Virus record (IMG/VR): IMGVR_UViG_3300030333_006991
Strand: one strand, 5' to 3'
DNA: 64,000 nucleotides
Origin: an uncultured virus (IMG/VR IMGVR_UViG_3300030333_006991)
Taxonomy: Duplodnaviria; Heunggongvirae; Uroviricota; Caudoviricetes
Below the pieces are notes generated by a model. The model was not told where the DNA came from. It did not search any database and was given only the letters and a program-made list of their open reading frames with translations. Positions 14,256 to 56,316 of this stretch are shown here, piece by piece; position 1 is the stretch's first letter; each line of letters begins with the position of its first letter. Both the position numbers and the translations under genes were made by a program.

Positions 14256-16415
14256 ATGGCAGACCTATTTGGGACTAAAGGGTTAGGCGGATTCGCCTAT
14301 TACGATAGAATGCCCGATTTAGGACGGCCTACTTCTGCTGACTCCGACCAATCAAATATCGCTGCACCTTTCGTAGTCGTATTCGATAAAAGAGGGGTGC
14401 GAAGTATCGCTAATGTCGGCACGGATATGGAAGAAAATCAACAAGGGATAAGCCCTCAAATGAAGATGTCTAAAAGTAAATCAGATATACATTATTTTTT
14501 CATCTTTTTACGACCCACCCAAGCGAGGAAAGCGGAACAATTATGGCTTGATGCCGAGTATTGTGACCTTTACGACTACCTAAAAGAAATCGCTCTTACT
14601 GAAGAAGGGGCTTTTGGGGGGGAAGAGGGAGAGGAATATCCACTTCAAGGAAGCATTAAACACAAATCGTGGAAACACAATGTAGGTGCATGGTTTGTAG
14701 AAAAAGACATCCGAGCCACAGAAGCCGTTATGCAGATTCATTGTGAGCCTGAAGAAGAAGAAGAACCTGAAAAGCCGTCTTTAGGAAGCCTTAATTGGGT
14801 GAGTTTTAGTAGCGAGAATAAAGTGCAAGGTCGGATTGGTCTATTTGGACATGAGTTTTTAGTTTGGGGAGCAAGAGATGGTAGGAGTCGAGTGCTTGGC
14901 TATCCTATGGAGGATTGGATTTGGGATGAGGGAGAATTTGAAGATAAAGAAGAATATATGGAGTTTATACGCCAAGTAGAACAGTTTGGAGCGTATTCTC
15001 TTCACCATGAGATATGGGATGACGAGACAGAGGAGTGGGAATACATAGACAGCATCACAGGAATCGTCCCAAGTGTGGATTACGACCTCATCCAAGCCGC
15101 CCATGAGTTTTTCGATTTGAAAAATCCGATTCTTTTAGGTGGAATGAATTGGATTTCTTTGCGAGCCGAAGATTTTCCTGAAGATGAAATAGGCTTGTTG
15201 AATTGGCGATGGGATGGTTGGAACAGATTGGATGATGAGGATGATTGGCTCCAAATGTGGGAAGATTGGGATTGGGACGATGATGGGTTTGAGAAAATAC
15301 ACACTCCAACCCCTGCTGCGGCTGCGGCTGCTGAAACATTCCAAGCCTACACTATTGGCGACACCTATACTGCTGATGAGGTGTATGAAATTGCTTCTTC
15401 AAGTCAAATGAGAGGACCGCAAAGTTGGGATTATCAACATTATGAAAATCCTGAGGATGACCGTTTGTTGAGAAGCATTCTGCGAACCCCTGAATGGGAA
15501 ATCATCAGATTTGATGAAAGAGTATTGAGGGAAAAACCTATCACTCATGCTGATTGTTGGATTGGGACATTCTATTGGCCTAAACCTATTCGTAGTAACA
15601 CTCCTATCGTTATTCAAAATGGAACCGTAGTTGATGGAAACCATCGTTTAGCGTCTGCTTTGACTTGGGGGCAAAGTGTGTTAGCATTTGTCCCTAAAGG
15701 AGAAGAATGGTGGATTGAGTGGTTCGATGAGGATGAAATGAAAGATTGGAATGATGAGTTGGATGAATTGTTAGGCTCAAGAACACAATCAGGCGTAAAC
15801 TCTAAATACTCCTCCCGAAGTGGGACTGATGTAGAGGAGTTTAGTGTGCCGTTCATAGATATATCAAATCAAGATGCTGATGGCGTTCCAACAGAGGAAA
15901 TCATTTGTGTAGACCATTTGTATCATGGTCAATATTCAATGGGAGGTGAAGAGATTACGGCTCACAGTCCTTATTGGTCGCCTAATCTCGATTTCGCTTT
16001 AGGTCACGCTCTTTTCGGAGCCGAATTAGAGAAAATGGTTCCTGCAACTCGTTGTGAATACTGTTACGAAGGGTGTGATAAGTGTGAAGAGGGGTGGGTG
16101 CTTCTGAATCGAGAAACAGACGATATTATCCCTCAAACAATGCCTATGGTTCTTCAACTTAATTTCGATACCGAAGAAGAGATTTGTTTCGCTCAAGATA
16201 TAGAGCATGAAAAGGGGCAATCCTATGTTCTTTACGGAGAATCTTCGGGATGGGAAATAGTCCCATCAAATCAACTGATTCCAATTCTTGAAAGATGGCT
16301 TGAAGACGAGGAAATACCTGAAGATATTCTTTTCGACACAGGAGCAGGATATGTTTCCGATGACCGAATTGTATGGAACCGAGTGGAACAAGCGATTCAA
16401 CAACTGCAAAATTAG
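14256..16415 (+). CDS. Modular acidic protein: three internal GxxNW motifs, ParB/Srx-like domain, possible ART-like and Zn-ribbon module
   Basis: GSLNWVSF, GGMNWISL, GLLNWRW; PIVIQNGTVVDGNHRLASA; LYHG...YWSPNLDFA; CEYC..GCDKC. Confidence 0.65.
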   Translation: MADLFGTKGLGGFAYYDRMPDLGRPTSADSDQSNIAAPFVVVFDKRGVRSIANVGTDMEENQQGISPQMKMSKSKSDIHYFFIFLRPTQARKAEQLWLDAEYCDLYDYLKEIALTEEGAFGGEEGEEYPLQGSIKHKSWKHNVGAWFVEKDIRATEAVMQIHCEPEEEEEPEKPSLGSLNWVSFSSENKVQGRIGLFGHEFLVWGARDGRSRVLGYPMEDWIWDEGEFEDKEEYMEFIRQVEQFGAYSLHHEIWDDETEEWEYIDSITGIVPSVDYDLIQAAHEFFDLKNPILLGGMNWISLRAEDFPEDEIGLLNWRWDGWNRLDDEDDWLQMWEDWDWDDDGFEKIHTPTPAAAAAAETFQAYTIGDTYTADEVYEIASSSQMRGPQSWDYQHYENPEDDRLLRSILRTPEWEIIRFDERVLREKPITHADCWIGTFYWPKPIRSNTPIVIQNGTVVDGNHRLASALTWGQSVLAFVPKGEEWWIEWFDEDEMKDWNDELDELLGSRTQSGVNSKYSSRSGTDVEEFSVPFIDISNQDADGVPTEEIICVDHLYHGQYSMGGEEITAHSPYWSPNLDFALGHALFGAELEKMVPATRCEYCYEGCDKCEEGWVLLNRETDDIIPQTMPMVLQLNFDTEEEICFAQDIEHEKGQSYVLYGESSGWEIVPSNQLIPILERWLEDEEIPEDILFDTGAGYVSDDRIVWNRVEQAIQQLQN

Positions 16416-21542: not shown

Positions 21543-22273
21543 CGAATGAATGGCTTTTTCACAACAAAGGAATCTTGAATTGGTGGTTTACCGATAAGTG
21601 GGGCGAAGAGATTAGAGATACTTTGAAAGCCCGATTGAGAAATATTGCTTGGGTTGCTCCTTTACAGAAGCAAATGCAAGACGAATTTATGAAAGTGGAC
21701 GCAAAGAAACCACTTCGACCAATTCGGAAACATCTCATTCACCATGAGTATAATCGTTCAAACATAGTAGAGTTGGCAAAAGAGGATTACTTGCCGTGGT
21801 TTGACGAGAATGTTAAAATCGGAGAAGCCAAAAAAACAGGATTGTATAATCGAGCGGCACAATTTGACGCTCCGATTTACGAAATTACCATCACTTTACC
21901 TCGTTATGATTGGAATAGGTGGAGTCGTTTGTGGAATCAACCATCTTTGTTCCGAGATTTACGAATAACTGAAGAATGGTTTTTCTTGATGAATATGCAC
22001 ACAATACTTCACTTGCCCCTCTCAGAAGATGAAACTCTGAGTGCAAGGTATCGGGAGATTCTTCGTAGCGTAGAAGAGAAGATACTCCTCACCGAACCGA
22101 TAACTCCTTTCGTGGAATATTTCGATTTAGCCCGTGTAGGAACCCACAAAAACATTGTTTATCAGGCTACCTTAGAAAGGAAAGGTGTGCCGAGTGGGAC
22201 GCAAATATTGGAATGGACGCTCCGCATCACACCGAAGACAGGGCAAAACTACACTTCAGGGGTGGAAGAATGA
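21539..22273 (+). CDS. Hypothetical protein, N-terminal GILNWW; paralog of 19952
   Basis: LFHNKGILNWW...DYLPWFDENVKI...LPRYD. Confidence 0.7.
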   Translation: MTNEWLFHNKGILNWWFTDKWGEEIRDTLKARLRNIAWVAPLQKQMQDEFMKVDAKKPLRPIRKHLIHHEYNRSNIVELAKEDYLPWFDENVKIGEAKKTGLYNRAAQFDAPIYEITITLPRYDWNRWSRLWNQPSLFRDLRITEEWFFLMNMHTILHLPLSEDETLSARYREILRSVEEKILLTEPITPFVEYFDLARVGTHKNIVYQATLERKGVPSGTQILEWTLRITPKTGQNYTSGVEE

Positions 22274-23364
22274 CTTTGAAAATCGCTTACGCTCTTTCAG
22301 GAGAAGGTAGAGGCCATACTATGCGAGCCTCGGCTCTCGGACAACGCCTCTTAGATTCAGGTTACGATGTCCAATTCTTTTCGTGTGGTGACGCTATTGA
22401 ACCTTTAACGGAAAAATTCGGTGCTAAAAGAATCCACGATTTACCCACTCCGAGATTTGTCTACAAGAAAAACGGTCAATTTCACCTTTGGAAAACCTCA
22501 ACTGATTTCGTGAAATTCATGTTTGGCGAAAGACGGAGAATCTTGCGTCTTTCACAGATGCTCCGAGATGAAAACTACGATGTTGTGATTTCCGACTTTG
22601 AACCGTTAATGAGTCGGGCGGCAAACAACGCAGGAATCCCATTAGTTTCCTTTAATTCTCAAAACTTCGTCAATGTTTGTAAACTTCCCTCTAAATACAA
22701 ATCACTTGCACTTCAAATCCTTCTTGTGAATCAGTTAATTGTAGCAGATTCCGCTTTTACCATAGTTTCCAAACCTGTGAAACTTCCTATCCGAGAGCAA
22801 GTTGGTTGTCTTGTAGGGCCGATTATCCGTGACCACATCATCGGAAGACGGTGGCGAGGAGGAGGAAAGTTTATTCTTCTCTATTACCGCCCTTCAATTT
22901 CTAAAACACTTCCTGATGTTCTTGAGTGGGCTGAACAGAAAGGTTGGAAGGTTCACTTATACGGACGACTTCATCCTTCAGAAAGGGCTCTACTTGACCA
23001 CGACAGCGTAGTGGAACGCCCGATTTCAGAAACAAAATTCATTGATGATATGATTGATTCCGAATTAGTCATTGGAACCGCAGGAACGCAAATGATAGGA
23101 GAAATTGCTTATTTAGGTGCGCCCGCCATTCTTGTCCCTGAATCAGGTCAAAAAGAGCAATTATTGAACGCTCAATTAGCCTCCGCAGATTTCCCTAATG
23201 TAACTTGGCTACCTCCTCACAAGGTTCGCTATGATTATCTTGAAGAGGCTGTGAATAATTTAAGTGATACAGGTGTAAGACACATTGAAAATGGTTCGGA
23301 TGACGCTTTTGAAGCCTTTGTAAAGTGGGCTGAAAACTTACCTAAAAGGAGTGGGTATCGGTGA
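22270..23364 (+). CDS. GT-B glycosyltransferase (MJ1255 / Glyco_trans_1_3-like)
   Basis: SGEGRGHTMR, DVVISDFEP, VGPIIR, VIGTAG...IGE and GQKEQ.LNA motifs. Confidence 0.85.
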   Translation: MTLKIAYALSGEGRGHTMRASALGQRLLDSGYDVQFFSCGDAIEPLTEKFGAKRIHDLPTPRFVYKKNGQFHLWKTSTDFVKFMFGERRRILRLSQMLRDENYDVVISDFEPLMSRAANNAGIPLVSFNSQNFVNVCKLPSKYKSLALQILLVNQLIVADSAFTIVSKPVKLPIREQVGCLVGPIIRDHIIGRRWRGGGKFILLYYRPSISKTLPDVLEWAEQKGWKVHLYGRLHPSERALLDHDSVVERPISETKFIDDMIDSELVIGTAGTQMIGEIAYLGAPAILVPESGQKEQLLNAQLASADFPNVTWLPPHKVRYDYLEEAVNNLSDTGVRHIENGSDDAFEAFVKWAENLPKRSGYR

Positions 23365-24413
23365 GATATGGTATTTTGAATTGGTGGTGGGGTGAAAACA
23401 ATATCCAAGATGAAATAAGAAAACAATGGGTTACATGGATGAGAGGACTCTTTTGGCAAAACGAAGCAATAGAATTGAAAAAACTCTCTGACGATGATTA
23501 TTACAATATTGAGGATGCAGAGGCTAAGTGGAACCCTGAGGATGGAAAATACCTTGTTGTTGCCGATTCAGAAAATAATGTTCCTGTCCACCATAATGTA
23601 TCACCAGGTGATAGATGGTTTACCTTTGAAAGAAGATTCCGATTCAGTGTGAAAGGTGACTCTGCTCTATTTCTAACTCCTTATCCTCATATTCCAAAGT
23701 CAGAAAGAAACAAGAAACAACATCTATTTGAGAATTCTACTGTTTGGGAAGACACTTTGTTAGAATTGGAATGGAGTCGGAGCGATATTTACACCCGTAG
23801 ATTCGCTTTTGAGTATTTGAAGGAATTATATCCTGAAACAGCGTATGGAGATATTTTTGCTTATTCTTCCGACAATGAGGGCCTTTTCCTCAGTTTGTTG
23901 AATTGGGATAATCCTATGAATAAGTTTTTCTATACAGTAGTGGGTGAAGGTATAGACCCTTTGCAGGACGAAAAAGGCGCACGAAAGTTGTGGGTTGAGT
24001 TTGTGCGAAATAATTTTGTGTGTGTTCTTGATTCTCGGCCTTCGCAGCCTGTGATACAGGCATTATCTGACCACTACGACATAGATTTATTGGAGTTTTG
24101 GCCTGATTTGGGGGACACGATACAATACCAACAGGTGGCTATGGCGGATGAATCAGTTGTGGTGAACAAAGGAGAAGAGATAGAGTTGTTCGACCTTGAC
24201 GAGGCACTTAGTTTGGACAACATAATAGCCCTTCATCCACGCTTGATTGAGTGTATCATTCGTTCACTATACATTGACGGAGACACATCTGAAAAGGAAA
24301 AATTGGATTGGTTCCTAAAAGATATAACAGAAAGTGGCTCTGCCAACGCATCTAACTACCTTACTCCATTTACACAATTTTTGGTTAATCTAAAATTGGA
24401 GGGTAAAATATGA
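23361..24413 (+). CDS. Hypothetical protein, N-terminal GILNWWW
   Basis: Starts MRYGILNWWWGE; second degenerate SLLNW internally. Confidence 0.7.
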   Translation: MRYGILNWWWGENNIQDEIRKQWVTWMRGLFWQNEAIELKKLSDDDYYNIEDAEAKWNPEDGKYLVVADSENNVPVHHNVSPGDRWFTFERRFRFSVKGDSALFLTPYPHIPKSERNKKQHLFENSTVWEDTLLELEWSRSDIYTRRFAFEYLKELYPETAYGDIFAYSSDNEGLFLSLLNWDNPMNKFFYTVVGEGIDPLQDEKGARKLWVEFVRNNFVCVLDSRPSQPVIQALSDHYDIDLLEFWPDLGDTIQYQQVAMADESVVVNKGEEIELFDLDEALSLDNIIALHPRLIECIIRSLYIDGDTSEKEKLDWFLKDITESGSANASNYLTPFTQFLVNLKLEGKI

Positions 24414-25738
24414 GTTTAGGATTTTTGAATTGGGAAGGATTCCTTGAGTGTCCTACTTGTGATTACAAGTGGTTCACATCTTACCCTGTTGAATGGTCGA
24501 AACGGCTCTACCCTGTTGAGATGCAAACTACGCATTGGGACAAGCACTCCTTCACCATCGAGAAGTATGAGCCTGTATCTGAGAACGCCTTCGCTCTCGA
24601 TGAGAATACTCGGTTTCAACATTACTTGGAATATATTGCTAATTTGGAAACTGTGAATTATGATGACTCCACAACAACAGGACCTATATTGGATAACCGT
24701 TACTACCATCCTTCTTCATTTCGGCTTTGGTGGGGTAAGGAACAGTGTTGGAAGTGCAAAAATTGGTATCATCATACAGAGTTACTACATCAAAGAGATT
24801 GGAACGATGAGGATTCCACAGGTTTCTGCCCCAATCCTGAATGTGGAGTGGCCCAAGAAGTAGCAGAAGAAAAAATCTATGAAGAGCGAGCAAATCAGCC
24901 GTATGGTATGTTCCATGAAGAAGAATTAGTGCTATTGGGAGAGTTAATTCAATATCCTGATTTATTCGACTCTGAGGGACGAGTTAAACCTGAGTGGTAT
25001 CAAAGAACAGGTTACAGTAGTTGGATTCAGGGCGTGATTAACAAATATCAAAAAGAGTGGTTCAAAGGTTTTGAAGACATTCACCGAACAAATCCTTCGG
25101 TTTTAGCCTCTCCTGTTATTGTTATTCCTGCCGCCCCACAATTACTCAGATATTTTGATTACAAATCTTCATCAGTTACCGATTATGCACCACTTTACAG
25201 TGATGCTCTTGAGATGAATCTCAGTGAGTTTTTCCGTTCAAAATTGAAGTATTTTTCAAGGAGTCGCCCTGAAAGCGAAATCACAAGGCAAGTTACTAAC
25301 CTCATACACGATTTCACATTGGAGTGCGAAGAATGGGAACATCGAAATCAGGCTTGGAAACAAATGTGTGGTGAAGATTACTTGGAGAATTTCCAACTTT
25401 TACAAGGTGTTCCTACCCCTACCACAAGTTTCTCGGAAGGAATACCTGATAACGAATGGATTATGGAATTACAAGAGGCGTGGGATGAGGAAGGACACAA
25501 AGGAACCTACCTAAACAATTCCCACATTTGGAATCAAGCCATAAAAGGTGGTCAAGATTATTGGGTTTGTGTGAATACTGCCTTAAATCGTGCCGTTCAA
25601 TCCCACCTCACCACACCTCTTGATAGATTCGGAAGAAATCCTTTTACATTAACTAACTTAGCCAAGATGACTGAAAAAGAAGTGTCTTCTACTCCAATGG
25701 AGTTGGGGGTGTTTTTCACAAAAGGGGAGGGGATGTAA
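24410..25738 (+). CDS. Hypothetical protein, N-terminal GFLNW, with CxxC motifs
   Basis: MSLGFLNWEG; CPTC, CWKC, CPNPEC. Confidence 0.7.
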   Translation: MSLGFLNWEGFLECPTCDYKWFTSYPVEWSKRLYPVEMQTTHWDKHSFTIEKYEPVSENAFALDENTRFQHYLEYIANLETVNYDDSTTTGPILDNRYYHPSSFRLWWGKEQCWKCKNWYHHTELLHQRDWNDEDSTGFCPNPECGVAQEVAEEKIYEERANQPYGMFHEEELVLLGELIQYPDLFDSEGRVKPEWYQRTGYSSWIQGVINKYQKEWFKGFEDIHRTNPSVLASPVIVIPAAPQLLRYFDYKSSSVTDYAPLYSDALEMNLSEFFRSKLKYFSRSRPESEITRQVTNLIHDFTLECEEWEHRNQAWKQMCGEDYLENFQLLQGVPTPTTSFSEGIPDNEWIMELQEAWDEEGHKGTYLNNSHIWNQAIKGGQDYWVCVNTALNRAVQSHLTTPLDRFGRNPFTLTNLAKMTEKEVSSTPMELGVFFTKGEGM

Positions 25739-25739
25739 G

Positions 25740-25814
25740 ATGAGTTTAGGACTTCTAAATTGGTGGGGTTATCTTGATGACTCAGAACCCTTAATCGCCC
25801 TTTTGCGAGGATAA
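25740..25814 (+). CDS. 24-aa micro-ORF consisting mostly of the GLLNW tag
   Basis: MSLGLLNWWGYLDDSEPLIALLRG*; GGGGAGGGG RBS; starts 2 nt after the previous stop; not in the ORF track. Confidence 0.6.
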   Translation: MSLGLLNWWGYLDDSEPLIALLRG

Positions 25815-25851
25815 AGTAGTGTTTATACGGTTAATGGCGGCATAAAAGGGT

Positions 25852-26328
25852 ATGAACGCCCGAATACTGCCTACTGTATTGTTGTGTTTCGTCTTGATGG
25901 CGGGATGTATTGGACAAGAGCCTGTTGAGAATCAGATTGATACGACCTACACCGTAGAGTCGGAATCTCGTATTTATCAACATAATTTTACTGAAGTAAT
26001 GGGGTCTGAGATGATGATGAAGGATGTGTGGGGGTTGAATAACACTACAAGTGCTGTTGCCGAAATCCAATTCGGCTACCAAAAGTCACCCTTTTCGGAT
26101 GGATGGGTAAACATTACTTTAACACAGAACGATACCGTTATCTTTCACACCAATGAAACGGAAATGGGAGGTAAGGATTTTACCAATATCACTTACGACC
26201 CTTTGTTTACTAATTGGACGCTAACTATCCACGCTCAAGGCTCTGACCACACACATGATGATATGTGGAATTTTCACGATAGATTCTACCTTAATATGAC
26301 TACGACTTATACAAATGAAACAATGTGA
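25852..26328 (+). CDS. Archaeal-type lipoprotein, probably N-glycosylated
   Basis: Signal peptide with LMAGC lipobox; many N-x-T sequons. Confidence 0.75.
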   Translation: MNARILPTVLLCFVLMAGCIGQEPVENQIDTTYTVESESRIYQHNFTEVMGSEMMMKDVWGLNNTTSAVAEIQFGYQKSPFSDGWVNITLTQNDTVIFHTNETEMGGKDFTNITYDPLFTNWTLTIHAQGSDHTHDDMWNFHDRFYLNMTTTYTNETM

Positions 26329-26615
26329 TTCTTATGTCGAGGCCGTTAAGTGAAAAAGTGATAGATTCTCTATCCATACAAAATCCTGAAGCCCTTTTCT
26401 GTGACGGCTTAAACGAGGCTCTTATAGGGTGGTGCTTTAGAGCAACGAAACCCGAAGTTGCGGTTTACGACCATGATAAATGTCTTGAAATCTTCATGGA
26501 AAGGGATGGTATGGACTTGGATGAAGCGATGGAACATTTACACTACAATGTTATCGGTGCGTGGGTGGGAGAAAACACACCTGTTTTTATGGTGCGATGC
26601 GAGGAGTTACCATGA
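26325..26615 (+). CDS. Conserved phage hypothetical protein
   Basis: DGLNEALIG..AVYD..KC..EAMEH..YNVIGAWVGENTP pattern common in phages. Confidence 0.7.
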   Translation: MILMSRPLSEKVIDSLSIQNPEALFCDGLNEALIGWCFRATKPEVAVYDHDKCLEIFMERDGMDLDEAMEHLHYNVIGAWVGENTPVFMVRCEELP

Positions 26616-27433
26616 CTTATCAAACTTATACAGGAGAAGGCGATGTGGGTGAAGCCCACCAATCTCTAATGCGTAAAGAATCGGCAGAAAAGGAAAGAGC
26701 AGGGCTCGGTTTCCACCCTGAAGATTTACTCCTTTCCGAGGCTGTAATCCGCCCGATAGAAAGAAAGGATGCTAAACCCGTAATTGAGCAGTATGAGTAT
26801 CTCAAATGTATGCCCGCCATTTCCACACACCATTTTGGAATCTTTTTTCCTACCTCGGAAGGGGAGCGATTGGGCGGGGTTTTGGTTTACGGTCCTGATT
26901 ACGCTAAAAATCTTGGTCATTGGGATAAATACGGTTACACCGATAATATGCTTCTTTTATCGAGAGGTGTTTGCTTATGGTGGACTCCTCACAATACGGC
27001 TTCCTTTTTCATCAGCCGAGCCAATCGTTGGTTACGAGAGAATACCGACATTAGAGTGATTACTGCTACCGTAGATGCTATGGCAGGAGAAGTAGGGACT
27101 ATTTATCAGTCATTGAATTGGGCGTATGTAGGTTCAATGCGGAGAGCCAATCCAAATATCAAGGCTAAAACACGCTCTCGTTTTGGAGTTATCATTGATG
27201 GGAAATTGTATGGTTCAAGGGCAATTCGTTCTAAAATCGGTTCACAGCGCAAGGCTGAGATATTGAAGAGATGGCCTGATGCTCAATTTGTTAAACAGCG
27301 AGAGAAGGAACGGTATTTCACCTTTCTTGGGACTAAAAGAGAGAAAAGAGATTTACGCAAATCTATTGAACACTTAATTTTACCTTATCCCAAAAGAGAT
27401 ATACCATCCACGCATAATGAGAAGGAGGACTAA
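26612..27433 (+). CDS. Mom-like (GNAT-fold) adenine-modification protein
   Basis: IEQYEYL, GVLVYG, LSRG.C....PHNTASFFIS, ATVD...GEVGTIYQSLNWAYVG. Confidence 0.65.
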   Translation: MTYQTYTGEGDVGEAHQSLMRKESAEKERAGLGFHPEDLLLSEAVIRPIERKDAKPVIEQYEYLKCMPAISTHHFGIFFPTSEGERLGGVLVYGPDYAKNLGHWDKYGYTDNMLLLSRGVCLWWTPHNTASFFISRANRWLRENTDIRVITATVDAMAGEVGTIYQSLNWAYVGSMRRANPNIKAKTRSRFGVIIDGKLYGSRAIRSKIGSQRKAEILKRWPDAQFVKQREKERYFTFLGTKREKRDLRKSIEHLILPYPKRDIPSTHNEKED

Positions 27434-27435
27434 GT

Positions 27436-27561
27436 GTGGGATGGGAGACATACGACCCTTCAGACGGGGATGATGATGATGATATATTCATTACAAGAAT
27501 GCTTGTGTTGGCGATGTTTACTATGTCGGGACTGATTGGCCTGTATTTCTACTTACAGTAG
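27436..27561 (+). CDS. 41-aa acidic peptide with C-terminal TM helix
   Basis: GGAGG RBS; MGWETYDPSDGDDDDDIFITRMLVLAMFTMSGLIGLYFYLQ*. Confidence 0.5.
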   Translation: MGWETYDPSDGDDDDDIFITRMLVLAMFTMSGLIGLYFYLQ

Positions 27562-27588
27562 AGTGAAAGATAAAGGGTCGGCAAGTGT

Positions 27589-27687
27589 ATGAAAAGATGG
27601 CGGTTTCCTTCTTTCAATCATCTTTTGGCTCGTTTTTTTCTTTTTTTCACCATTCTATTTGCATTTATCTTGGTTATGATGGCTTGA
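27589..27687 (+). CDS. 32-aa membrane peptide
   Basis: MKRWRFPSFNHLLARFFLFFTILFAFILVMMA*. Confidence 0.4.
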   Translation: MKRWRFPSFNHLLARFFLFFTILFAFILVMMA

Positions 27688-27692
27688 TAAAC

Positions 27693-27702
27693 CTCTTATA
27701 GT
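27693..27702 (+). promoter_or_regulatory. CTCTTATAGT promoter motif
   Basis: 29 nt upstream of ATG 27722. Confidence 0.7.
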
Positions 27703-27721
27703 CCGACTGAGAGTTAATGGT

Positions 27722-28372
27722 ATGGTTAAGGATTACTACTACTTGGAATACCATGATGACGCTAAAAACAGTCATAAATTCTACATCGGTTTAGAAACTG
27801 ATGCCGATATAGGTTTACTTGCTTGGGGGCGTATTGGAGGAAGAGGACAATCAAAAGAGGCTTCAAGGAAATTAGTGGCTAAGATGATGAGGGACAAGTT
27901 GAAAAAGGGGTATGTGGACAAAACGGACGAAATGCCTCAATATCTCAAAGATTTGTATTTTCCGAAGATGAGTAAAATCCTTGAGTTGTGGGGTCGGGAG
28001 AACGGGCAGAGTAAAATGCGAGAATATGCGTGTGGATTTGGAGATACTTACAATCACATGGAGGCCCCCATAGATGAGAATGGAGAATATGAGTTTGAAA
28101 CCTTATGTGTTAAGTGGGACGAACATGGTAATGTCTTAGATATTATCATTGTGGCAGACCCATCAGGAAAAACACGAAAACCAACAATTGATGATTACAG
28201 ATACATTGTTAAAAGCGGTCAATTTGATAATTCTTATTTTGATTACAAACGGAATTACGAGGAAGAGAATCGAGGGCATTGGATTGATAATCTCATGGCA
28301 TATATTCAAAACAGGGCAAAACCTCGTTTAATGAACCGTTACGGACTGTTGAATTGGTGGAATTTTCAATAG
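27722..28372 (+). CDS. WGR-domain protein with C-terminal GLLNWW
   Basis: YLEY..NSHKFY...AWGRIG..GQ...KLKKGY; ends YGLLNWWNFQ*. Confidence 0.8.
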   Translation: MVKDYYYLEYHDDAKNSHKFYIGLETDADIGLLAWGRIGGRGQSKEASRKLVAKMMRDKLKKGYVDKTDEMPQYLKDLYFPKMSKILELWGRENGQSKMREYACGFGDTYNHMEAPIDENGEYEFETLCVKWDEHGNVLDIIIVADPSGKTRKPTIDDYRYIVKSGQFDNSYFDYKRNYEEENRGHWIDNLMAYIQNRAKPRLMNRYGLLNWWNFQ

Positions 28373-32446: not shown

Positions 32447-32485
32447 GGCGTAAGGCTTAAAGGGTGTGTGTCCTACCATTACAGT

Positions 32486-33226
32486 ATGTCTGATATTCAA
32501 TCTATGACTTTGGCTTGTGGAATCGCACCTTTGAAGGAAATGGTGGCGAATCTTCGTTTGCTGACGGAAGAGTGCGTGTTTACCATTACAGAAGAAGGCA
32601 TTGAAACTTCAGTTGTAGATTCTTCTCATTCGTGTTTATTGTTTTCACATCTACCTGCGAAAACCTTGACTTCCATTGATATTGAGGGTGAAGTTAAAAT
32701 CGCTGTTAATCTTGAATCTCTTGAGTCAGCCTTGAAACTTGGAGATAAAAGTAGTGTTGTAAAAATGACTTTGGGTGAATACGGTTCCTTCTTGAAATTA
32801 GATGTGGGTGGTGTGAAAAAGTCCATTCGACTTTTAGATATTGCTCTTGTTAAAACACCGCCACTCCCTCAAATTGAATTGGATTTACAGGCTGAGGTTG
32901 GCGGGTCTTCATTCAAAAAGGGTGTAGATGCTGTGAAAACCGTAGGTGAAGCGGCCAAGTTGCATTACGATGGTAGTATTTTTACCTTATCAGCCGATTC
33001 TACTATGGAATCTGTGGAAGCCCCCTTAGAAGTTATCAAATTACAAAAGGGCGGTGACGATGCAGTAGCCACCCTATTTTCCACTCCATTCTTGACTAAG
33101 ATGACGAAGAGTTTATCCAAAGAAGTGAAGATTTCATTCGGAGAGCAAAAACCAATACAGTTAGAATCTAACAAAGGAAATTTACTGTTCAATTGGTTTC
33201 TCGCCCCTCGGATTTCCGACATTTAA
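32486..33226 (+). CDS. pcna: PCNA sliding clamp (archaeal type)
   Basis: ECVFTITEEGI...VDSSH, IRLLD..PPLP, FGEQKPI and C-terminal FLAPRI; ~246 aa. Confidence 0.9.
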   Translation: MSDIQSMTLACGIAPLKEMVANLRLLTEECVFTITEEGIETSVVDSSHSCLLFSHLPAKTLTSIDIEGEVKIAVNLESLESALKLGDKSSVVKMTLGEYGSFLKLDVGGVKKSIRLLDIALVKTPPLPQIELDLQAEVGGSSFKKGVDAVKTVGEAAKLHYDGSIFTLSADSTMESVEAPLEVIKLQKGGDDAVATLFSTPFLTKMTKSLSKEVKISFGEQKPIQLESNKGNLLFNWFLAPRISDI

Positions 33227-36875: not shown

Positions 36876-37901
36876 ATGGTTGTTAAATCTGCTACTAAAA
36901 AGAAACTCATGGATTTGGGTGTGTATGAGTATCACGCTCATCTTTTAGCCGATGACCGTAAGTGGGACGATGTAAAGAAATTATCTATCTTGGATATTGG
37001 AACAATTATCTTTGGCGATATGGATGTGGCTTCTGCCAATGCAGATGATTGGCTATCCAAAGGAGAGAAGATATTCTATCTCATACATCCGTATAGACGA
37101 CCTATTCCTAATCCTCCACCTACAAGAAAGAAATTAGGTATATTGAATTGGTGGTGGGGAGAAGGTAACGAATCGAGTTTACTTGATAGAGGGGTCGAGG
37201 ACATCTTTTACACGCTTCTTACTGATAGTGTGGGAAGGGCGTCAATAGATGTGGATGACGATGTAGAACCTCCTAATGATTCATCAATGGATTTGTGGTT
37301 CAGAGAAAATATTAGGGAAGACACTATTCTCTTCTACATGGAAAACAGGTTCAGTAGTTTAGCCGAGGAGCGGCACTTTGTTAAAAGGAAGGAAGGAATC
37401 AATGACCATGTTCGCCACAAGAAATTGCATGACTCAATAGCAGAGAAAATTGGAAACGATGGGTGGAGTGAGAGCATTTATTCGTTACTCGCCCTGATAA
37501 TCTTGGAGTGGGATTCTCTTGATTTGAGCAAACCGTTTATGCTTATCCCAAGTGAGGAGGTTATGAAGTGGCTTGTAAATTCTTTTGTAGAGGGCTTGAA
37601 TAAGGAGGTCGAAGGTTGGGAAGCGAAGATAAAATACGAGATGTTCTCAACTGAGCAGCCCATAGGTGATTTCATCAACCCTGAGGTGATTAAACCTGAG
37701 AATTATGAAACTCCTTCATACAAGGTCGTAGGAATAAGAACGACAGATGGTAAAAAGAAGCAAAATCTGTTAGTTTCATTCAATAATTTGTCTTCTGAAG
37801 GTTATTATTGTGTTTCCCCTTTGATGAATGCGTGGGCTGCACACTATTGCTCTCAAAGATGGCCTGACTTGTGGAAGCAATTCTTACATTTGGAGGGATA
37901 G
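36876..37901 (+). CDS. Chimeric protein: N-terminal host-like segment, Pro linker, internal GILNWWW, unknown domain
   Basis: MVVKSATKKKLMDLGV..HLLADDRKWDDVK; PIPNPPPT; LGILNWWWGE. Confidence 0.7.
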   Translation: MVVKSATKKKLMDLGVYEYHAHLLADDRKWDDVKKLSILDIGTIIFGDMDVASANADDWLSKGEKIFYLIHPYRRPIPNPPPTRKKLGILNWWWGEGNESSLLDRGVEDIFYTLLTDSVGRASIDVDDDVEPPNDSSMDLWFRENIREDTILFYMENRFSSLAEERHFVKRKEGINDHVRHKKLHDSIAEKIGNDGWSESIYSLLALIILEWDSLDLSKPFMLIPSEEVMKWLVNSFVEGLNKEVEGWEAKIKYEMFSTEQPIGDFINPEVIKPENYETPSYKVVGIRTTDGKKKQNLLVSFNNLSSEGYYCVSPLMNAWAAHYCSQRWPDLWKQFLHLEG

Positions 37902-38809
37902 TGTTGAGAGAAAACTGTAAAAAAGAGAGGACTCCTAAAGCAACCTTTGTTTGGGAATGTGAATCTGAAGTAGAGCAAGGAGGCTCTATGGGGCTTTTGA
38001 ATTGGGATTGGGATAATTCAATTCCCATTACGCAATATGAAGGCGGGATTTTGGCTGCTTACGAGGATGATAATTGTTGTAGTAATTCTATGGGAATGGT
38101 CTTAGAAGAGGCGGTAACAGAGTTGTATAATTTTCACTATGAACAACAAGGAGATTCTCATGCACCTTTTCCTTCGTGGTTCCCCAAAGAATACCTTCCT
38201 GTTATGGTGGATTTAGAAAGGTTTGAAAGAGCGTTCAAAGAGAAGGAGAGAATTCCATCACTATCCGACTATCACCCACACCGAGAGTTGTTTCCTGTAT
38301 GGGATTCAGAAGACAAATATTTGGATTGGGTAATCATACCCTCGCTCCCATACGATACGGAGCCCTATCCTTTAATGATGGAAACTTTGGAGGGATTAGG
38401 TGAGTTGGGACGGAGGAATCGAGAAAATTTCCTTCGGCACTTTGATTTTACGGATGATATGCTTAACATGGAAGGAGCGGTTGGTGGAATAGTGCTTCAT
38501 GTGGAAGTCACACCCACCAAAACGAGTTACAACGATTTCCCTCAAGATGATGGTTTTTTTACTGTGGCTCCCTCACGGTTCCAGCGTGTCGAGCCTGTAA
38601 TCAGAGTGATTTTCCTTGATGAAAACCGTGAACGGGTAGAGAATGAAGAAATAGTATGGATGGCTCCGTATTTTTCTTATTACAAGGTCGAAAAGCGACA
38701 ATGGTGGCTCCCTGTTTTAGTCAAGATGTTCGCTCCTTCTTTGGGAGCATACAAAAGATGGGCCTTCAAACATCTCCCTTATGTTTTGGAAGAAGGATAT
38801 TCCGTCTAA
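37901..38809 (+). CDS. Hypothetical protein, N-terminal GLLNWDW
   Basis: GTG 37901 or ATG 37988, both with GGAGG; the latter gives MGLLNWDW. Confidence 0.7.
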   Translation: MLRENCKKERTPKATFVWECESEVEQGGSMGLLNWDWDNSIPITQYEGGILAAYEDDNCCSNSMGMVLEEAVTELYNFHYEQQGDSHAPFPSWFPKEYLPVMVDLERFERAFKEKERIPSLSDYHPHRELFPVWDSEDKYLDWVIIPSLPYDTEPYPLMMETLEGLGELGRRNRENFLRHFDFTDDMLNMEGAVGGIVLHVEVTPTKTSYNDFPQDDGFFTVAPSRFQRVEPVIRVIFLDENRERVENEEIVWMAPYFSYYKVEKRQWWLPVLVKMFAPSLGAYKRWAFKHLPYVLEEGYSV

Positions 38810-42528: not shown

Positions 42529-43449
42529 ATGACGGAATTATTCATGGTTACAGGCAAAGGGGGTGTAGGTAAATCTACTACTGCTGCTGCAACTGCTCTT
42601 CAACACGCAGACGCAGGGAAGAAAGTTTTGTTGATGTCGAGCGACCCTGCACATAATCTTGGTGATTTGTTTGAAAAAACTTTAGGAAACGAACCGATTG
42701 CTGTGGCTAATCGTCTATGGGCTTTAGAGATTGATGCTACTAAAAGGGCTCTCGATTTTATGAACGCTCTAAATGATGTCTTCAAATCTATTTTCAAAAA
42801 GAGTGCGGGTGTAGATATTGACTTGTTTAACGATATGATTTTACCTGGTTTAGATGAAATCTTTTTCTGTGAAACTGTGTTGGCTGAATGGGATTCAGGA
42901 AAATGGGATGTTATTATTGCAGATACACCTCCAAGTGGTCAAGCGTTGCGGGCTTTGACGACTCCTGATATTCTTGATGCGTGGTTAAGCCGAGTAATCG
43001 CTTTGAAACGCAAGTTTGAGGTGATGAAAGGAGCGATTTTCAAGAAAAAGGTAGATTCCGAGATGGAAAAAACCGTAGGGCGCATGAAGGAAGACATCGC
43101 TCGTTTCAAATCCATTGTGGCCTCACCTCAATGCCATTTAATTCTTGTAACGATTCCTGAGCGATTGAGCGTTATGGAAACCCACAGAACCGTTCAATTC
43201 TTGAATCATTTAGGGCTTGGAGTTTGGGGTGTCGTTGTGAATCGAATTATTCCTGATTTTGGTGAGGATTGGGAGCATGATTCACCTGCGGTAAAACTTT
43301 TACACAATCAACATCAGATTCATGTGGAATCTCTTGATTTGGCGGCTAACTTGCTTGGTAATTTGAATGTAAAACAGGTTCCAATGGTGGCTTACGCTCC
43401 TGTCGGTGTGGAAAATCTACGAAAATTCAGTCAATTGATATGGGGATAA
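42529..43449 (+). CDS. Single-domain ArsA/Get3 (TRC40)-family ATPase
   Basis: GKGGVGKST, SSDPAHNLGD, LEID, PGLDE, DTPPSG, LVTIPE.LSVMET, VVNRI. Confidence 0.9.
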   Translation: MTELFMVTGKGGVGKSTTAAATALQHADAGKKVLLMSSDPAHNLGDLFEKTLGNEPIAVANRLWALEIDATKRALDFMNALNDVFKSIFKKSAGVDIDLFNDMILPGLDEIFFCETVLAEWDSGKWDVIIADTPPSGQALRALTTPDILDAWLSRVIALKRKFEVMKGAIFKKKVDSEMEKTVGRMKEDIARFKSIVASPQCHLILVTIPERLSVMETHRTVQFLNHLGLGVWGVVVNRIIPDFGEDWEHDSPAVKLLHNQHQIHVESLDLAANLLGNLNVKQVPMVAYAPVGVENLRKFSQLIWG

Positions 43450-54245: not shown

Positions 54246-56315
54246 ATGGTAAAAGTGGACGACATTATTGAAATCACCGACTCTGCTTACGAAAAAAACG
54301 GTATCAAATTGGAAGGTAGACGGTATTGGGTAAGAAAAGTCAAAAAAGATGGTGGCGTAAATGCTGCCCCTATTGTTCCTGAAAACTCGTTATACAAACA
54401 AGAAGCAAGTGGAGTTAATTGGGACACACTTGGATTGTCTGATAAAGGCCGCCCTCGTAGCCTACCTAAGAATGTATACTCAATCATCGGAACCATGCAA
54501 GGCGATAAAGACGGTAAAGCAATCAATAATACGGCTACTTTAACGACTTCCGCTACTACGACTCCTACTTCAACCACACAAGATGATGACGATGAAGAAC
54601 CTTCTGAAGTCCCTTCTGACGAGGATGAGGAGATAGAGGAGATTGAGATTGTTGCGGATGTTGTGGAACCTGAGGCGAAAAAGGAACAGAGTAAAACACG
54701 GTATAGTGGGAAAGTCGCCACTTCTATGAGTAAAAGTGGGTTGTGTTTTAACACTGATTTACTGATACCTTTTGAGCAAGCCCGTGAAATAGATGTAGAT
54801 AAGATACCTATTGTTGGAGGAACCACAAGAGGTTTGGTCTTGGATAAAAAGAACGGGGCTGATTTCCGTGTGCGAGTTTGTTTCAGCGCACCTGTTAATT
54901 TCCTGAATCCTACGGCTTACAAATCACAGAAAGATTTAGACGCCTCTTTGGAAAAGAACACAACAAAAGAGTTTATGGTTCTTCGACAATATCAGATTGG
55001 TAAGAAGGTCGTGGATGTGTTAGGCTCTAAGGCAAAGGAAACTCAATCCATTCAATGGCACACAAACAATCAACCGTTCAATATGGAGGCAGAAGTTGTT
55101 TCTATTCGTATGGATTGGGAAGATACTGCATCTTGGGATGCACCCCCTACCAAAATAGTAGTTGGTTTGGTAGATAGCGAAGGCGAGTCCTTTTCATTAG
55201 AACATATCGTTCAAACAGTAGATTTCGTAGGAAGTCAATCTGCCGCAGGAACAACAACTTCGGCTTCTCCTTTTGGCGCATCAATGACGACCAACACAGG
55301 GGCGAAGGGACTTCCCACATCAGATACACAATCTTCTTCACCGTTTGGTTCAGGTGTTGTAACAGGTGGTGATGCTTCACCTGCTGCTACTCCTGATAAA
55401 AAAACATCTATTAAACCTGAAGAGTTGCCTGTAAATAGATTCCCGTCTACTCAAAAGGGCGATGCTCCTGCTTTGTATGCTTTGAGGTCTATCCTTGCGA
55501 TGTCTTATGACCAAGATTTTGACGCTTTTGCACCGTTTGAAAAGGAATATGTGGTTGATTGGGATAAACAACCTTCGCTTACTTCTAAAGATACGGGTTA
55601 TGTTCAAATTGTTCTTGAAGTTAAGGATGGTCAAGGATATGTAACGAATAGGTTCCCAGGTAAGTGGGAGAACAGTGATATGTTGAAGAAACAACCTGAT
55701 ATGTGGCCTCAATATCCTCGTAGAGTTATTTTGATTCTTCCGCAAGCAGATTCTCAATATCTTTACTGTCCCGTAGATGAAATTACTCCTGATAAGGAAA
55801 CGGGTGTGAGTGCTTTAGGAAATGAAACGCTTGATTTTTCCAATCCAAATCGTGAACATTGGATTGATGAGGTTCAAGAAGTAAAATATTACGAAGCCAA
55901 AGGAATCATCAAAGATATTCAACTTTTACAATCTTACACTAAGACCACAATTGCGGGAATAGGGCAGAAGGAAACTTCAGAAGAAACTCTTGTTAAAACA
56001 TTGAAAGTAGGAGAAACCTATGAATTCGGAGTTAAGGAACCTGCATCTTCGACTATTGCACCTCTAAAAGGAAAACTTGCTAAGGTAGAAGTAATGAAAG
56101 ATGGGAGTAGAGAGAACATCTTTTTGGCGGCTGAATCTGAAAGAAGGAGCCTGAGAGTTATTGAAGATTACGAAGTATTCTTCGCTACGGAAAAGGATGA
56201 TAAAAATAATCCTCAATTCCTTATCGTTCTCGCTAACGAAAAAGGAAAAGAGAATTCAGGACAGATTATTCGGATTGATTTGAGTAAGAGCAAGGAAGAA
56301 GAAGGGAGTGATTAA
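54246..56315 (+). CDS. Multidomain hypothetical protein with T/S-rich linkers
   Basis: GAGGTG RBS; first gene of the AAA/vWA operon. Confidence 0.75.
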   Translation: MVKVDDIIEITDSAYEKNGIKLEGRRYWVRKVKKDGGVNAAPIVPENSLYKQEASGVNWDTLGLSDKGRPRSLPKNVYSIIGTMQGDKDGKAINNTATLTTSATTTPTSTTQDDDDEEPSEVPSDEDEEIEEIEIVADVVEPEAKKEQSKTRYSGKVATSMSKSGLCFNTDLLIPFEQAREIDVDKIPIVGGTTRGLVLDKKNGADFRVRVCFSAPVNFLNPTAYKSQKDLDASLEKNTTKEFMVLRQYQIGKKVVDVLGSKAKETQSIQWHTNNQPFNMEAEVVSIRMDWEDTASWDAPPTKIVVGLVDSEGESFSLEHIVQTVDFVGSQSAAGTTTSASPFGASMTTNTGAKGLPTSDTQSSSPFGSGVVTGGDASPAATPDKKTSIKPEELPVNRFPSTQKGDAPALYALRSILAMSYDQDFDAFAPFEKEYVVDWDKQPSLTSKDTGYVQIVLEVKDGQGYVTNRFPGKWENSDMLKKQPDMWPQYPRRVILILPQADSQYLYCPVDEITPDKETGVSALGNETLDFSNPNREHWIDEVQEVKYYEAKGIIKDIQLLQSYTKTTIAGIGQKETSEETLVKTLKVGETYEFGVKEPASSTIAPLKGKLAKVEVMKDGSRENIFLAAESERRSLRVIEDYEVFFATEKDDKNNPQFLIVLANEKGKENSGQIIRIDLSKSKEEEGSD

Positions 56316-56316
56316 G

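What the first reader, a model, noticed from the sequence alone, without database searches (positions are those of the whole stretch)
25740..25814. Tag-only 24-aa micro-ORF
Seen: MSLGLLNWWGYLDDSEPLIALLRG* with a strong RBS, directly after the tagged gene at 24410. The 5' DNA of the two is nearly the same (ATGAGTTTAGGACTTCTAAATTGG vs ATGAGTTTAGGATTTTTGAATTGG). Inference: an empty cassette, a truncated remnant, or a free peptide that competes for or regulates the tag receptor. It would define the minimal functional unit.
Basis: partly seen in the sequence, partly recalled or inferred. Interest (0 to 1): 0.7.

Follow-up and report, generated by a model that had tools for sequence, protein, structure and literature searches.

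The report
Deletion scar of a tagged gene
The 24-codon reading frame is what is left of a roughly 250-codon virus gene after an internal deletion of about 700 bases, so it is an ordinary gene remnant and not a purpose-built "tag-only" peptide gene.

Summary
The ORF is real: 25740-25814, MSLGLLNWWGYLDDSEPLIALLRG*, a GGGGAGGGG ribosome-binding site 7 nt upstream, starting 1 nt after the stop of the tagged gene 24410-25738.

It is a deletion remnant. A related metagenome contig (L001) carries a 260-aa gene at the same position, starting MSLGLLNWWGYLDDSEYSW... and lying just upstream of the same lipoprotein gene. Window 25740-25787 matches that gene's first 48 nt, and window 25777 onwards matches its last 18 nt plus everything downstream. 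The two matches overlap in an 11-nt microhomology, ATGACTCAGAA.

The missing 728 nt (L001 coordinates) shift the frame. The old stop codon (25792-25794) is read through, and the tail PLIALLRG* comes from the out-of-frame gene end plus former intergenic DNA.

A contig from a roughly 96%-identical strain (run X5) bridges the site with 714 other letters. Five full-length homologue clusters of 231-260 aa, at 49-99% identity, keep the same N-terminus.

The deleted form also occurs in a second record, L002. Nothing shows the remnant is conserved or functional. The surrounding G-h-L-N-W tag system is real and is the more interesting feature: 23 copies against 0.38 expected.

The parts
24410..25738 (+). 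Upstream tagged gene, 442 aa, N-terminus MSLGFLNWEGFLECPTCDY. No Pfam or PHROG family.
   Evidence: Homologues P0001 (97%, 441 aa) and P0002 (41%, 381 aa, starts MKLGLLNWWGSL).
25724..25732 (+). Ribosome-binding site GGGGAGGGG inherited by the remnant. It lies inside the last codons of the upstream gene.
   Evidence: L001 has GAGGGGGG at the equivalent place before its full-length gene.
25740..25787 (+). Retained 5' end of the ancestral gene: codons 1-16, MSLGLLNWWGYLDDSE, which carry the tag.
   Evidence: 46 of 48 nt identical to L001 1877-1924 (95.8%). The 2 differences are synonymous (GGT/GGC, TCA/TCG). The same N-terminus is found in five homologue clusters.
25777..25787 (+). Deletion junction: the 11-nt microhomology ATGACTCAGAA. 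In full-length relatives it is present both in codons 13-16 and, in another frame, in the last codons (..DMTQNP*).
   Evidence: The two BLAST segments overlap: L001 1877-1924 = window 25740-25787, and L001 2642-4624 = window 25777-27759. Alignment A1. The L001 copies start at 1914 and 2642, a distance of 728 nt.
25788..25814 (+). Frame-shifted tail. It holds the last bases of the old gene with its bypassed stop (TAA, 25792-25794), then former intergenic DNA up to the new stop TAA at 25812-25814. It encodes PLIALLRG*.
   Evidence: In L001 the same DNA is the gene end ...CAG AAC CCT TAA followed by spacer.
25822..25827 (+). TTTATA, a possible archaeal TATA box about 27 nt before the ATG of the next gene. 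It is conserved in L001. This is an inference only.
   Evidence: sequence. The promoter reading rests on recalled knowledge of archaeal promoters and was not tested.
25852..26328 (+). Downstream gene, 158 aa: signal peptide with a lipobox-like LMAGC and many N-x-T sequons. It is the conserved right-hand neighbour in all forms.
   Evidence: Same gene at L001 2717-3193. The flank is 89.7% identical over 1986 nt.

Best explanation
The micro-ORF is a recent deletion scar. The ancestor carried, between the 442-aa tagged gene and the lipoprotein gene, a further tagged gene of about 247-260 codons of unknown function. An illegitimate, microhomology-mediated deletion between two copies of ATGACTCAGAA removed about 690-730 nt. 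One copy lay in codons 13-16 (D-D-S-E). The other lay in a different frame in the last codons (D-M-T-Q-N). The join leaves codons 1-16 with their start codon and RBS, shifts the frame, skips the old stop and runs 8 further codons to a chance TAA in the old spacer. SHOWN: the collinearity, the junction, the frame shift, full-length genes in relatives, and the presence of the deleted form in two records. INFERRED: that slippage or illegitimate recombination was the mechanism, and that the remnant has no selected function. It may still be translated as a by-product, because its initiation signals are intact.
For: (1) L001 has a 260-aa ORF at 1877-2659 that starts with the same 16 residues and is followed by the same lipoprotein, 96-aa and Mom-like genes. 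(2) BLAST gives L001 1877-1924 = window 25740-25787 (95.8%) and L001 2642-4624 = window 25777-27759 (89.7%), with an 11-nt overlap. The repeat distance is 728 nt, which is 2 mod 3 (alignment). (3) Run X5 holds a 3385-nt contig covering 24240-25787 and 25814-26947, with 714 letters in place of the window's 26 (tables 5 and 8). So a strain that also has the 442-aa gene upstream carries a long insert here. (4) Five homologue clusters of 231-260 aa at 49-99% identity all start MSLGLLNWWG[YW][LI]DDS. No form of 30-142 aa was found: 0 of 7 candidates passed. (5) The tail is not conserved as coding. In L001 the same frame has no stop at that place and differs by a substitution and a 1-nt indel.
Against: No read-level data were examined for the window's own sample, so allele frequency is unknown. 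Only one relative (L001) gave actual DNA across the full-length gene. The X5 insert's letters were not shown, so its identity with the P0004/P0005-type gene rests on length arithmetic. The start codon and a strong RBS are intact, so expression of the peptide is not excluded. The function of the lost gene is unknown: Pfam gave nothing meaningful, the AlphaFold model had mean pLDDT 37, and the Atlas search gave no hit at 0.9 or above.
Confidence: 0.9

Rival explanations
1. The remnant is translated and the free 24-aa peptide, carrying the G-L-L-N-W-W tag, acts as a decoy or regulator that competes with tagged proteins for whatever reads the tag.
For: ATG and GGGGAGGGG RBS are intact. The retained 16 residues are the most conserved part of the parent family. 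The deleted allele is seen in two records that differ at 3 of 10033 positions.
Against: The ORF's structure is fully explained by a frame-shifting deletion. The last 8 residues are filler from non-coding or out-of-frame DNA. No diverged relative keeps a short form. It is the only tag-only ORF among 23 tag copies in 64 kb. The two RNA contigs of run X20 that were laid lie at 26499-26892 and 27285-27400, not on the ORF, which is no evidence either way.
Confidence: 0.06
2. Assembly artefact: the assembler collapsed a full-length gene into a short one.
For: Contigs of run X2 (99-100% identical strain) stop at 25786 and restart at 25814 (table 8), which would fit a branch in the assembly graph.
Against: The shared repeat is only 11 nt, shorter than the word sizes assemblers usually use (recalled knowledge). 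The same junction is present in a second public record, L002, which differs from the window at 3 positions. Run X1 holds 0.99 of the sampled words of 23400-27400.
Confidence: 0.03
3. Reverse direction: the short ORF is the ancestral empty site, and the long gene was inserted in relatives.
For: Neighbouring cassettes do differ between strains: 442-aa gene in the window against an unrelated 277-aa gene in L001.
Against: An insertion would have to create a coherent 231-260-aa ORF whose first 16 codons and last 6 codons pre-existed in two different frames. Full-length forms exist down to 49% identity, whereas the short form is known only from near-identical records.
Confidence: 0.01

Closest known systems
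Gene remnants left by microhomology-mediated (illegitimate) deletion in phage and virus genomes
   Same: Short direct repeat at the junction (11 nt). Loss of the gene body with retention of start signals. A frame-shifted tail that ends at a chance stop. The event is strain-specific and recent.
   Different: Nothing essential. The only special point is that the retained piece happens to be a shared terminal tag.
Phage T4 capsid targeting sequence (CTS) on internal-protein cassettes of T-even phages
   Same: A short shared leader on otherwise unrelated, fast-changing accessory genes arranged in tandem. Between the window and L001, homology stops right after the tag codons of one gene (24433) and resumes at the ATG of the next tagged gene (25740), as if tags bound exchangeable cassettes.
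   Different: Here the tag sits at the C-terminus in 12 of 23 copies and at the N-terminus in 8 of 23. No prohead protease, cleavage motif or capsid gene was identified in the window. No packaging is shown.
PCNA-interacting peptide (PIP box, Q-x-x-[ILM]-x-x-[FYW]-[FYWL]; consensus recalled)
   Same: A terminal location and a hydrophobic residue followed two positions later by aromatic residues ([ILV]-L-N-W-W). The virus encodes its own PCNA at 32468-33226.
   Different: Q at the first position occurs in only 2 of 23 copies. The recognisable repair and replication enzymes in the window (UvdE, ERCC4, RNR) lack the tag.
Earlier scan note e1-6073230: N-terminal MSWxxILK tag on about 25 proteins of a marine archaeal tailed virus
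   Same: A marine archaeal-type virus in which many unrelated proteins share a short terminal peptide.
   Different: A different motif and a different genome. That note is an unchecked AI reading, and no sequence relation was found here (one search found no look-alike windows).

Membership tests
Deletion remnant (pseudogene fragment) of a full-length gene | An orthologous full-length gene at the same position in relatives | tested here: met
   L001 1877-2659 encodes 260 aa between tagged genes and the same lipoprotein gene. An X5 contig carries 714 letters at the site.
Deletion remnant (pseudogene fragment) of a full-length gene | Both ends of the short ORF map to the two ends of the long gene, with a definable junction | tested here: met
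   The BLAST segments overlap by the 11 nt ATGACTCAGAA, and 728 nt are missing.
Deletion remnant (pseudogene fragment) of a full-length gene | The short form is not conserved among diverged relatives | tested here: met
   It is seen only in the window and L002, which differ at 3 of 10033 positions. Five homologue clusters are 231-260 aa long. None of 30-142 aa was found. ORFs under 30 aa could not be searched.
Functional small-peptide gene (decoy or regulator) | Conservation of the short ORF, including its C-terminal part, under purifying selection | tested here: not met
   The tail derives from out-of-frame and intergenic DNA. In L001 the equivalent frame differs and has no stop at that place.
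Functional small-peptide gene (decoy or regulator) | Evidence of translation or transcription | not testable with these tools
   Only assembled RNA contigs were available, and none lies on the ORF. This says nothing either way.
PIP-box PCNA-binding peptide (applies to the tag itself) | Q-x-x-h-x-x-a-a consensus | tested here: inconclusive
   The h-x-x-W-(W) core is present in all copies, but Q at position 1 in only 2 of 23.
PIP-box PCNA-binding peptide (applies to the tag itself) | Binding to the clamp | not testable with these tools
The PCNA alignment A4 was prepared.
T4-type capsid targeting sequence (applies to the tag itself) | N-terminal only, and removed by a prohead protease encoded nearby | tested here: not met
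   12 of 23 tags are C-terminal. No protease or capsid family was found in the window.

The most novel reading that the evidence does not exclude
The deletion allele persists because the leftover peptide is made and is useful. As a free G-L-L-N-W-W tag it would titrate the unknown tag reader and so tune how much of some 20 tagged accessory proteins is docked or delivered. It would then be a natural 'tag-only' competitor, and it would show that 16 residues suffice for recognition.
Probability: 0.05. Interest if true: 0.6.

Novelty: already known. Interest (0 to 1): 0.2.

Why it matters
Taken alone, the micro-ORF is an ordinary gene remnant and should not be used to define a minimal tag unit. 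It is useful in two modest ways. First, it dates a gene loss to within about 4% sequence divergence and shows that the tagged accessory genes of this virus turn over quickly. Second, the comparison that resolved it shows tagged genes being exchanged between strains, with breakpoints at the tag-coding sequence. That is relevant to whoever studies the tag system itself.

Tried and rejected
**Searches that could not run or were not usable**
- No whole genome is held for this window.
I used a DNA pattern scan instead.
I therefore could not check whether P0001 and P0005 lie on the same contig; both list a longest contig of 30136 nt.
- Complex prediction (viral PCNA with the N-terminal 40 residues of the full-length family) was unavailable, so no binding test was made.
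- Earlier scan notes: none for this genome or sequence.

**Collections with no relatives**
- IMG/VR holds no relatives of the 442-aa gene, of the micro-ORF pattern or of the full-length family (51 pattern matches, none confirmed).
- The GTDB genomes hold none either (19 pattern matches, none confirmed).
- The GLLNWWG DNA pattern in IMG/VR gave 21 loci. None has 3 or more [GAS][ILVFM]LNW motifs: 1 has 2, 16 have 1 and 4 have 0. I read these as chance matches.
- Three loci found through the Mom-like neighbour (56-66% identity) carry no tag. The one whose ORFs I listed (L024) has a different gene set, so these loci are not informative for synteny.

**Function of the lost gene**
- Pfam gave only a sub-threshold hit.
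- The AlphaFold model had mean pLDDT 37 and was unusable, so no fold search was made.
- The ESM Atlas best score was 0.89, a lead only.

**Read and contig data that count as no evidence**
- X2 contigs end at 25786 and restart at 25814. This is compatible with both alleles co-occurring, but a gap in contig cover is not evidence.
- The X20 RNA contigs do not cover the ORF.

**Literature**
- The strings GLLNWW, GILNWW, LLNWW and ILNWW gave 1 irrelevant paper.
- 'archaeal virus' + 'PIP-box' + 'PCNA' + 'viral proteins' gave 0 papers.
- 'magroviruses' + 'PCNA' + 'capsid' gave 1 paper, the ICTV profile PMC10768690. I read it in full; it mentions no such tag.

Full report
**Observation**

The window carries an ORF at 25740-25814 (+) that encodes MSLGLLNWWGYLDDSEPLIALLRG*. 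A GGGGAGGGG stretch lies at 25724-25732, 7 nt before the ATG. The upstream gene 24410-25738 (442 aa, starting MSLGFLNWEGFLE) stops at 25736-25738, one base before the micro-ORF. The first 24 nt of the two genes agree at 21 of 24 positions.

**Context**

The window has 41% G+C, and nearly all long ORFs lie on the + strand. It encodes:
- PCNA (32468-33226)
- an ERCC4 nuclease
- UvdE
- a class II-type ribonucleotide reductase
- an ArsA/Get3-like ATPase
- a Mom-like protein
- a glycosyltransferase
- one tRNA-Arg

Most other proteins match no family. No host genome is held. The runs that contain this DNA are almost all labelled marine, seawater, marine-sediment or sponge metagenomes, plus one with a coded organism name. 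I read it as an uncultured marine virus with archaeal-type replication and repair genes. That assignment is an inference.

**The tag**

The motif [GAS][ILVFM]LNW occurs 23 times in the six-frame translation.
- All 23 copies are on the + strand and in frame with ORFs.
- Eight copies lie within 42 codons after an upstream stop, so they are N-terminal.
- Twelve copies lie within 20 codons of the ORF's stop, so they are C-terminal.
- Three copies are internal.
- Nucleotide shuffles give a mean of 0.38 copies. Residue shuffles of the 47 long ORFs give 0.05 against 22 observed.
- The Gly and Leu/Ile codons vary among copies, so selection acts on the peptide.
- Tagged proteins are otherwise unrelated: among 21 tagged ORFs, only 1 pair (19952 and 21539) matches by BLASTP at E below 1e-3.

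So the tag is a real, shared terminal peptide. The micro-ORF is the only copy that sits in a short ORF.

**What the micro-ORF is**

A degenerate DNA pattern for residues 4-14 found two metagenome contigs.

L002 is the same virus. It is collinear with the window at an offset of 20748, differs at 3 of 10033 positions, and has the identical micro-ORF.

L001 is a relative whose right flank is 89.7% identical over 1986 nt. At the same position, L001 has a 260-aa ORF (1877-2659) that starts MSLGLLNWWGYLDDSEYSWVKGFF and ends AGCDMTQNP*. It is followed by the same lipoprotein gene, 96-aa gene, Mom-like gene and WGR gene.

BLAST maps the two ends of the micro-ORF to the two ends of that gene:
- L001 1877-1924 matches window 25740-25787 (46 of 48 nt; both differences are synonymous).
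- L001 2642-4624 matches window 25777-27759.
- The two segments overlap on the window in ATGACTCAGAA (25777-25787).

L001 has this word twice, at 1914 (with one mismatch) and at 2642, 728 nt apart.

- In the 5' copy it encodes (D)-D-S-E in frame.
- In the 3' copy it encodes M-T-Q-(N) in another frame.

Because 728 is 2 mod 3, the join shifts the frame. The old stop (TAA, 25792-25794) is bypassed, and eight codons (PLIALLRG) are read from the old gene end and spacer until a TAA at 25812-25814.

**Independent support**

In run X5, one 3385-nt contig lies on 24240-25787 and on 25814-26947, with 714 other letters in place of the window's 26 (tables 5 and 8). It shows 59 and 48 other letters on the two parts. 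So a strain that has the 442-aa gene upstream also has a long insert at this spot. The letters themselves were not shown. Their number fits a gene of about 247 codons if the spacer has the same 1-nt indel as L001. That is arithmetic, not observation.

The large protein collection holds five homologue clusters of the L001 gene:
- P0003: 99% identity, 260 aa
- P0004: 81%, 248 aa, on 10 contigs, the longest 132545 nt
- P0005: 77%, 255 aa
- P0006: 49%, 232 aa
- P0007: 49%, 231 aa

All start MSLGLLNWWG[YW][LI]DDS. No homologue of 30-142 aa was found: 0 of 7 candidates passed. Proteins under 30 aa cannot be searched.

P0001, the 97% homologue of the upstream gene, and P0005 both list a longest contig of 30136 nt. 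This hints that they are neighbours. I could not check it.

**Direction and artefact**

An insertion that created a coherent, conserved ORF from a 24-codon ORF is not credible. The full-length form is the diverse one. The short form is known only from two near-identical records. An assembly collapse is unlikely, because the repeat is only 11 nt and a second record shares the junction. Read-level confirmation was not possible. X2 contigs stop at 25786 and restart at 25814. This may mean that both alleles co-occur, but a gap in contig cover is not evidence.

**Function**

The lost gene has no recognisable family, no usable model (mean pLDDT 37) and no convincing Atlas neighbour (best 0.89). It shares with the upstream 442-aa protein only two things:
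- the tag (E = 0.002);
- a short C-terminal motif, DWWICIDSDINKAVQ against DYWVCVNTALNRAVQ (E = 3e-4).

It may therefore be a distant tandem paralogue. The remnant keeps its ATG and RBS, so a 24-aa peptide could be made. Nothing indicates selection for it.

What reads the tag remains open. The motif has a PIP-like core (h-x-x-W-W), and the virus has its own PCNA. However, Q occurs at position 1 in only 2 of 23 copies, and the recognisable repair enzymes are untagged. A cargo or address-label role, as suggested for other viruses in the earlier scan note e1-6073230, is equally possible. The planned PCNA-tag complex prediction could not be run.

**Comparison with what is known**

The micro-ORF is an ordinary product of microhomology-mediated deletion.

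The wider pattern is a set of tandem, unrelated accessory genes that share a terminal peptide. The homology between strains ends right after the tag codons (window 24433) and resumes at the next tagged gene's ATG (25740), while the gene between differs: 442 aa in the window against an unrelated 277 aa in L001. This recalls the internal-protein cassettes of T-even phages with their capsid targeting sequence. That comparison is recalled and was not read here. It differs in that tags here occur at either terminus, and no protease or capsid link is seen.

Literature searches found no description of this motif. The ICTV profile of Aoguangviridae, read in full, does not mention one.

**Verdict**

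The 'truncated remnant' reading is supported, and the 'minimal functional unit or regulatory peptide' reading is not. The micro-ORF itself is of low interest. The tag system around it deserves its own study.

Noticed in passing
window 3892-44909 (23 sites; list): A shared terminal peptide G-[ILVF]-L-N-W-(W/x)-(W) sits on about 21 otherwise unrelated ORFs: 8 N-terminal, 12 C-terminal and 3 internal copies. There is none in the last 19 kb of the window. All 23 Asn codons in the motif are AAT, against 68% AAT in the long ORFs, and 15 of 23 copies read TTGAATTGG. This may point to an added DNA-level constraint or to gene conversion.
   Followed up: partly
window 24410-25738 versus L001 1047-1880: Cassette swap between strains. 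The window has a 442-aa gene with CxxC motifs, while L001 has an unrelated 277-aa gene at the same place. Both start MSLGFLNW. DNA homology ends at window 24433 (the last tag codon) and resumes at 25740 (the ATG of the next tagged gene). The tag-coding DNA may therefore serve as a recombination site.
   Followed up: partly
window 27722-28372 versus L001 4587-4904: The WGR-domain protein is 216 aa in the window and 105 aa in L001. Both end ...PRLMNRYGLLNWWNFQ*, so about 110 residues between the WGR domain and the tag are gained or lost while the tag is kept.
   Followed up: no
window 14256-16415: A 719-aa ORF has three tag-like segments inside it: SLGSLNWVSF, GGMNWISL and IGLLNWRWDGW, the last near residue 313. 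It is possibly a fusion of formerly separate tagged genes.
   Followed up: no
window 37871-38809: The likely true start is the ATG at 37988, preceded by a GGAGG-containing stretch a few nt upstream. That gives an N-terminal MGLLNWDW tag. The longer GTG-started ORF overlaps the previous gene.
   Followed up: no
window 25822-26328: The 158-aa protein has a signal peptide with a lipobox-like LMAGC and about 10 N-x-T/S sequons. TTTATA lies about 27 nt before its ATG and is conserved in L001, which suggests an archaeal-type promoter and a leaderless mRNA. A glycosyltransferase gene lies at 22213-23364.
   Followed up: no
window 42529-43449 and 56308-60252: The virus encodes an ArsA/Get3-type ATPase (Pfam E = 1.8e-63) and a 1314-aa protein with AAA_5/AAA_lid_2 matches. 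Their roles are unknown. I did not examine whether either relates to handling of the tagged proteins.
   Followed up: no
L024, L025, L026 (IMG/VR): The Mom-like gene (window 26612-27433) has 56-66% identical copies on low-G+C contigs (32-36% G+C) that carry no tag. ORFs were listed only for L024: its long ORFs look to me like a family A DNA polymerase and a primase-helicase (read by eye; no family scan was run). This looks like gene exchange across virus groups.
   Followed up: partly
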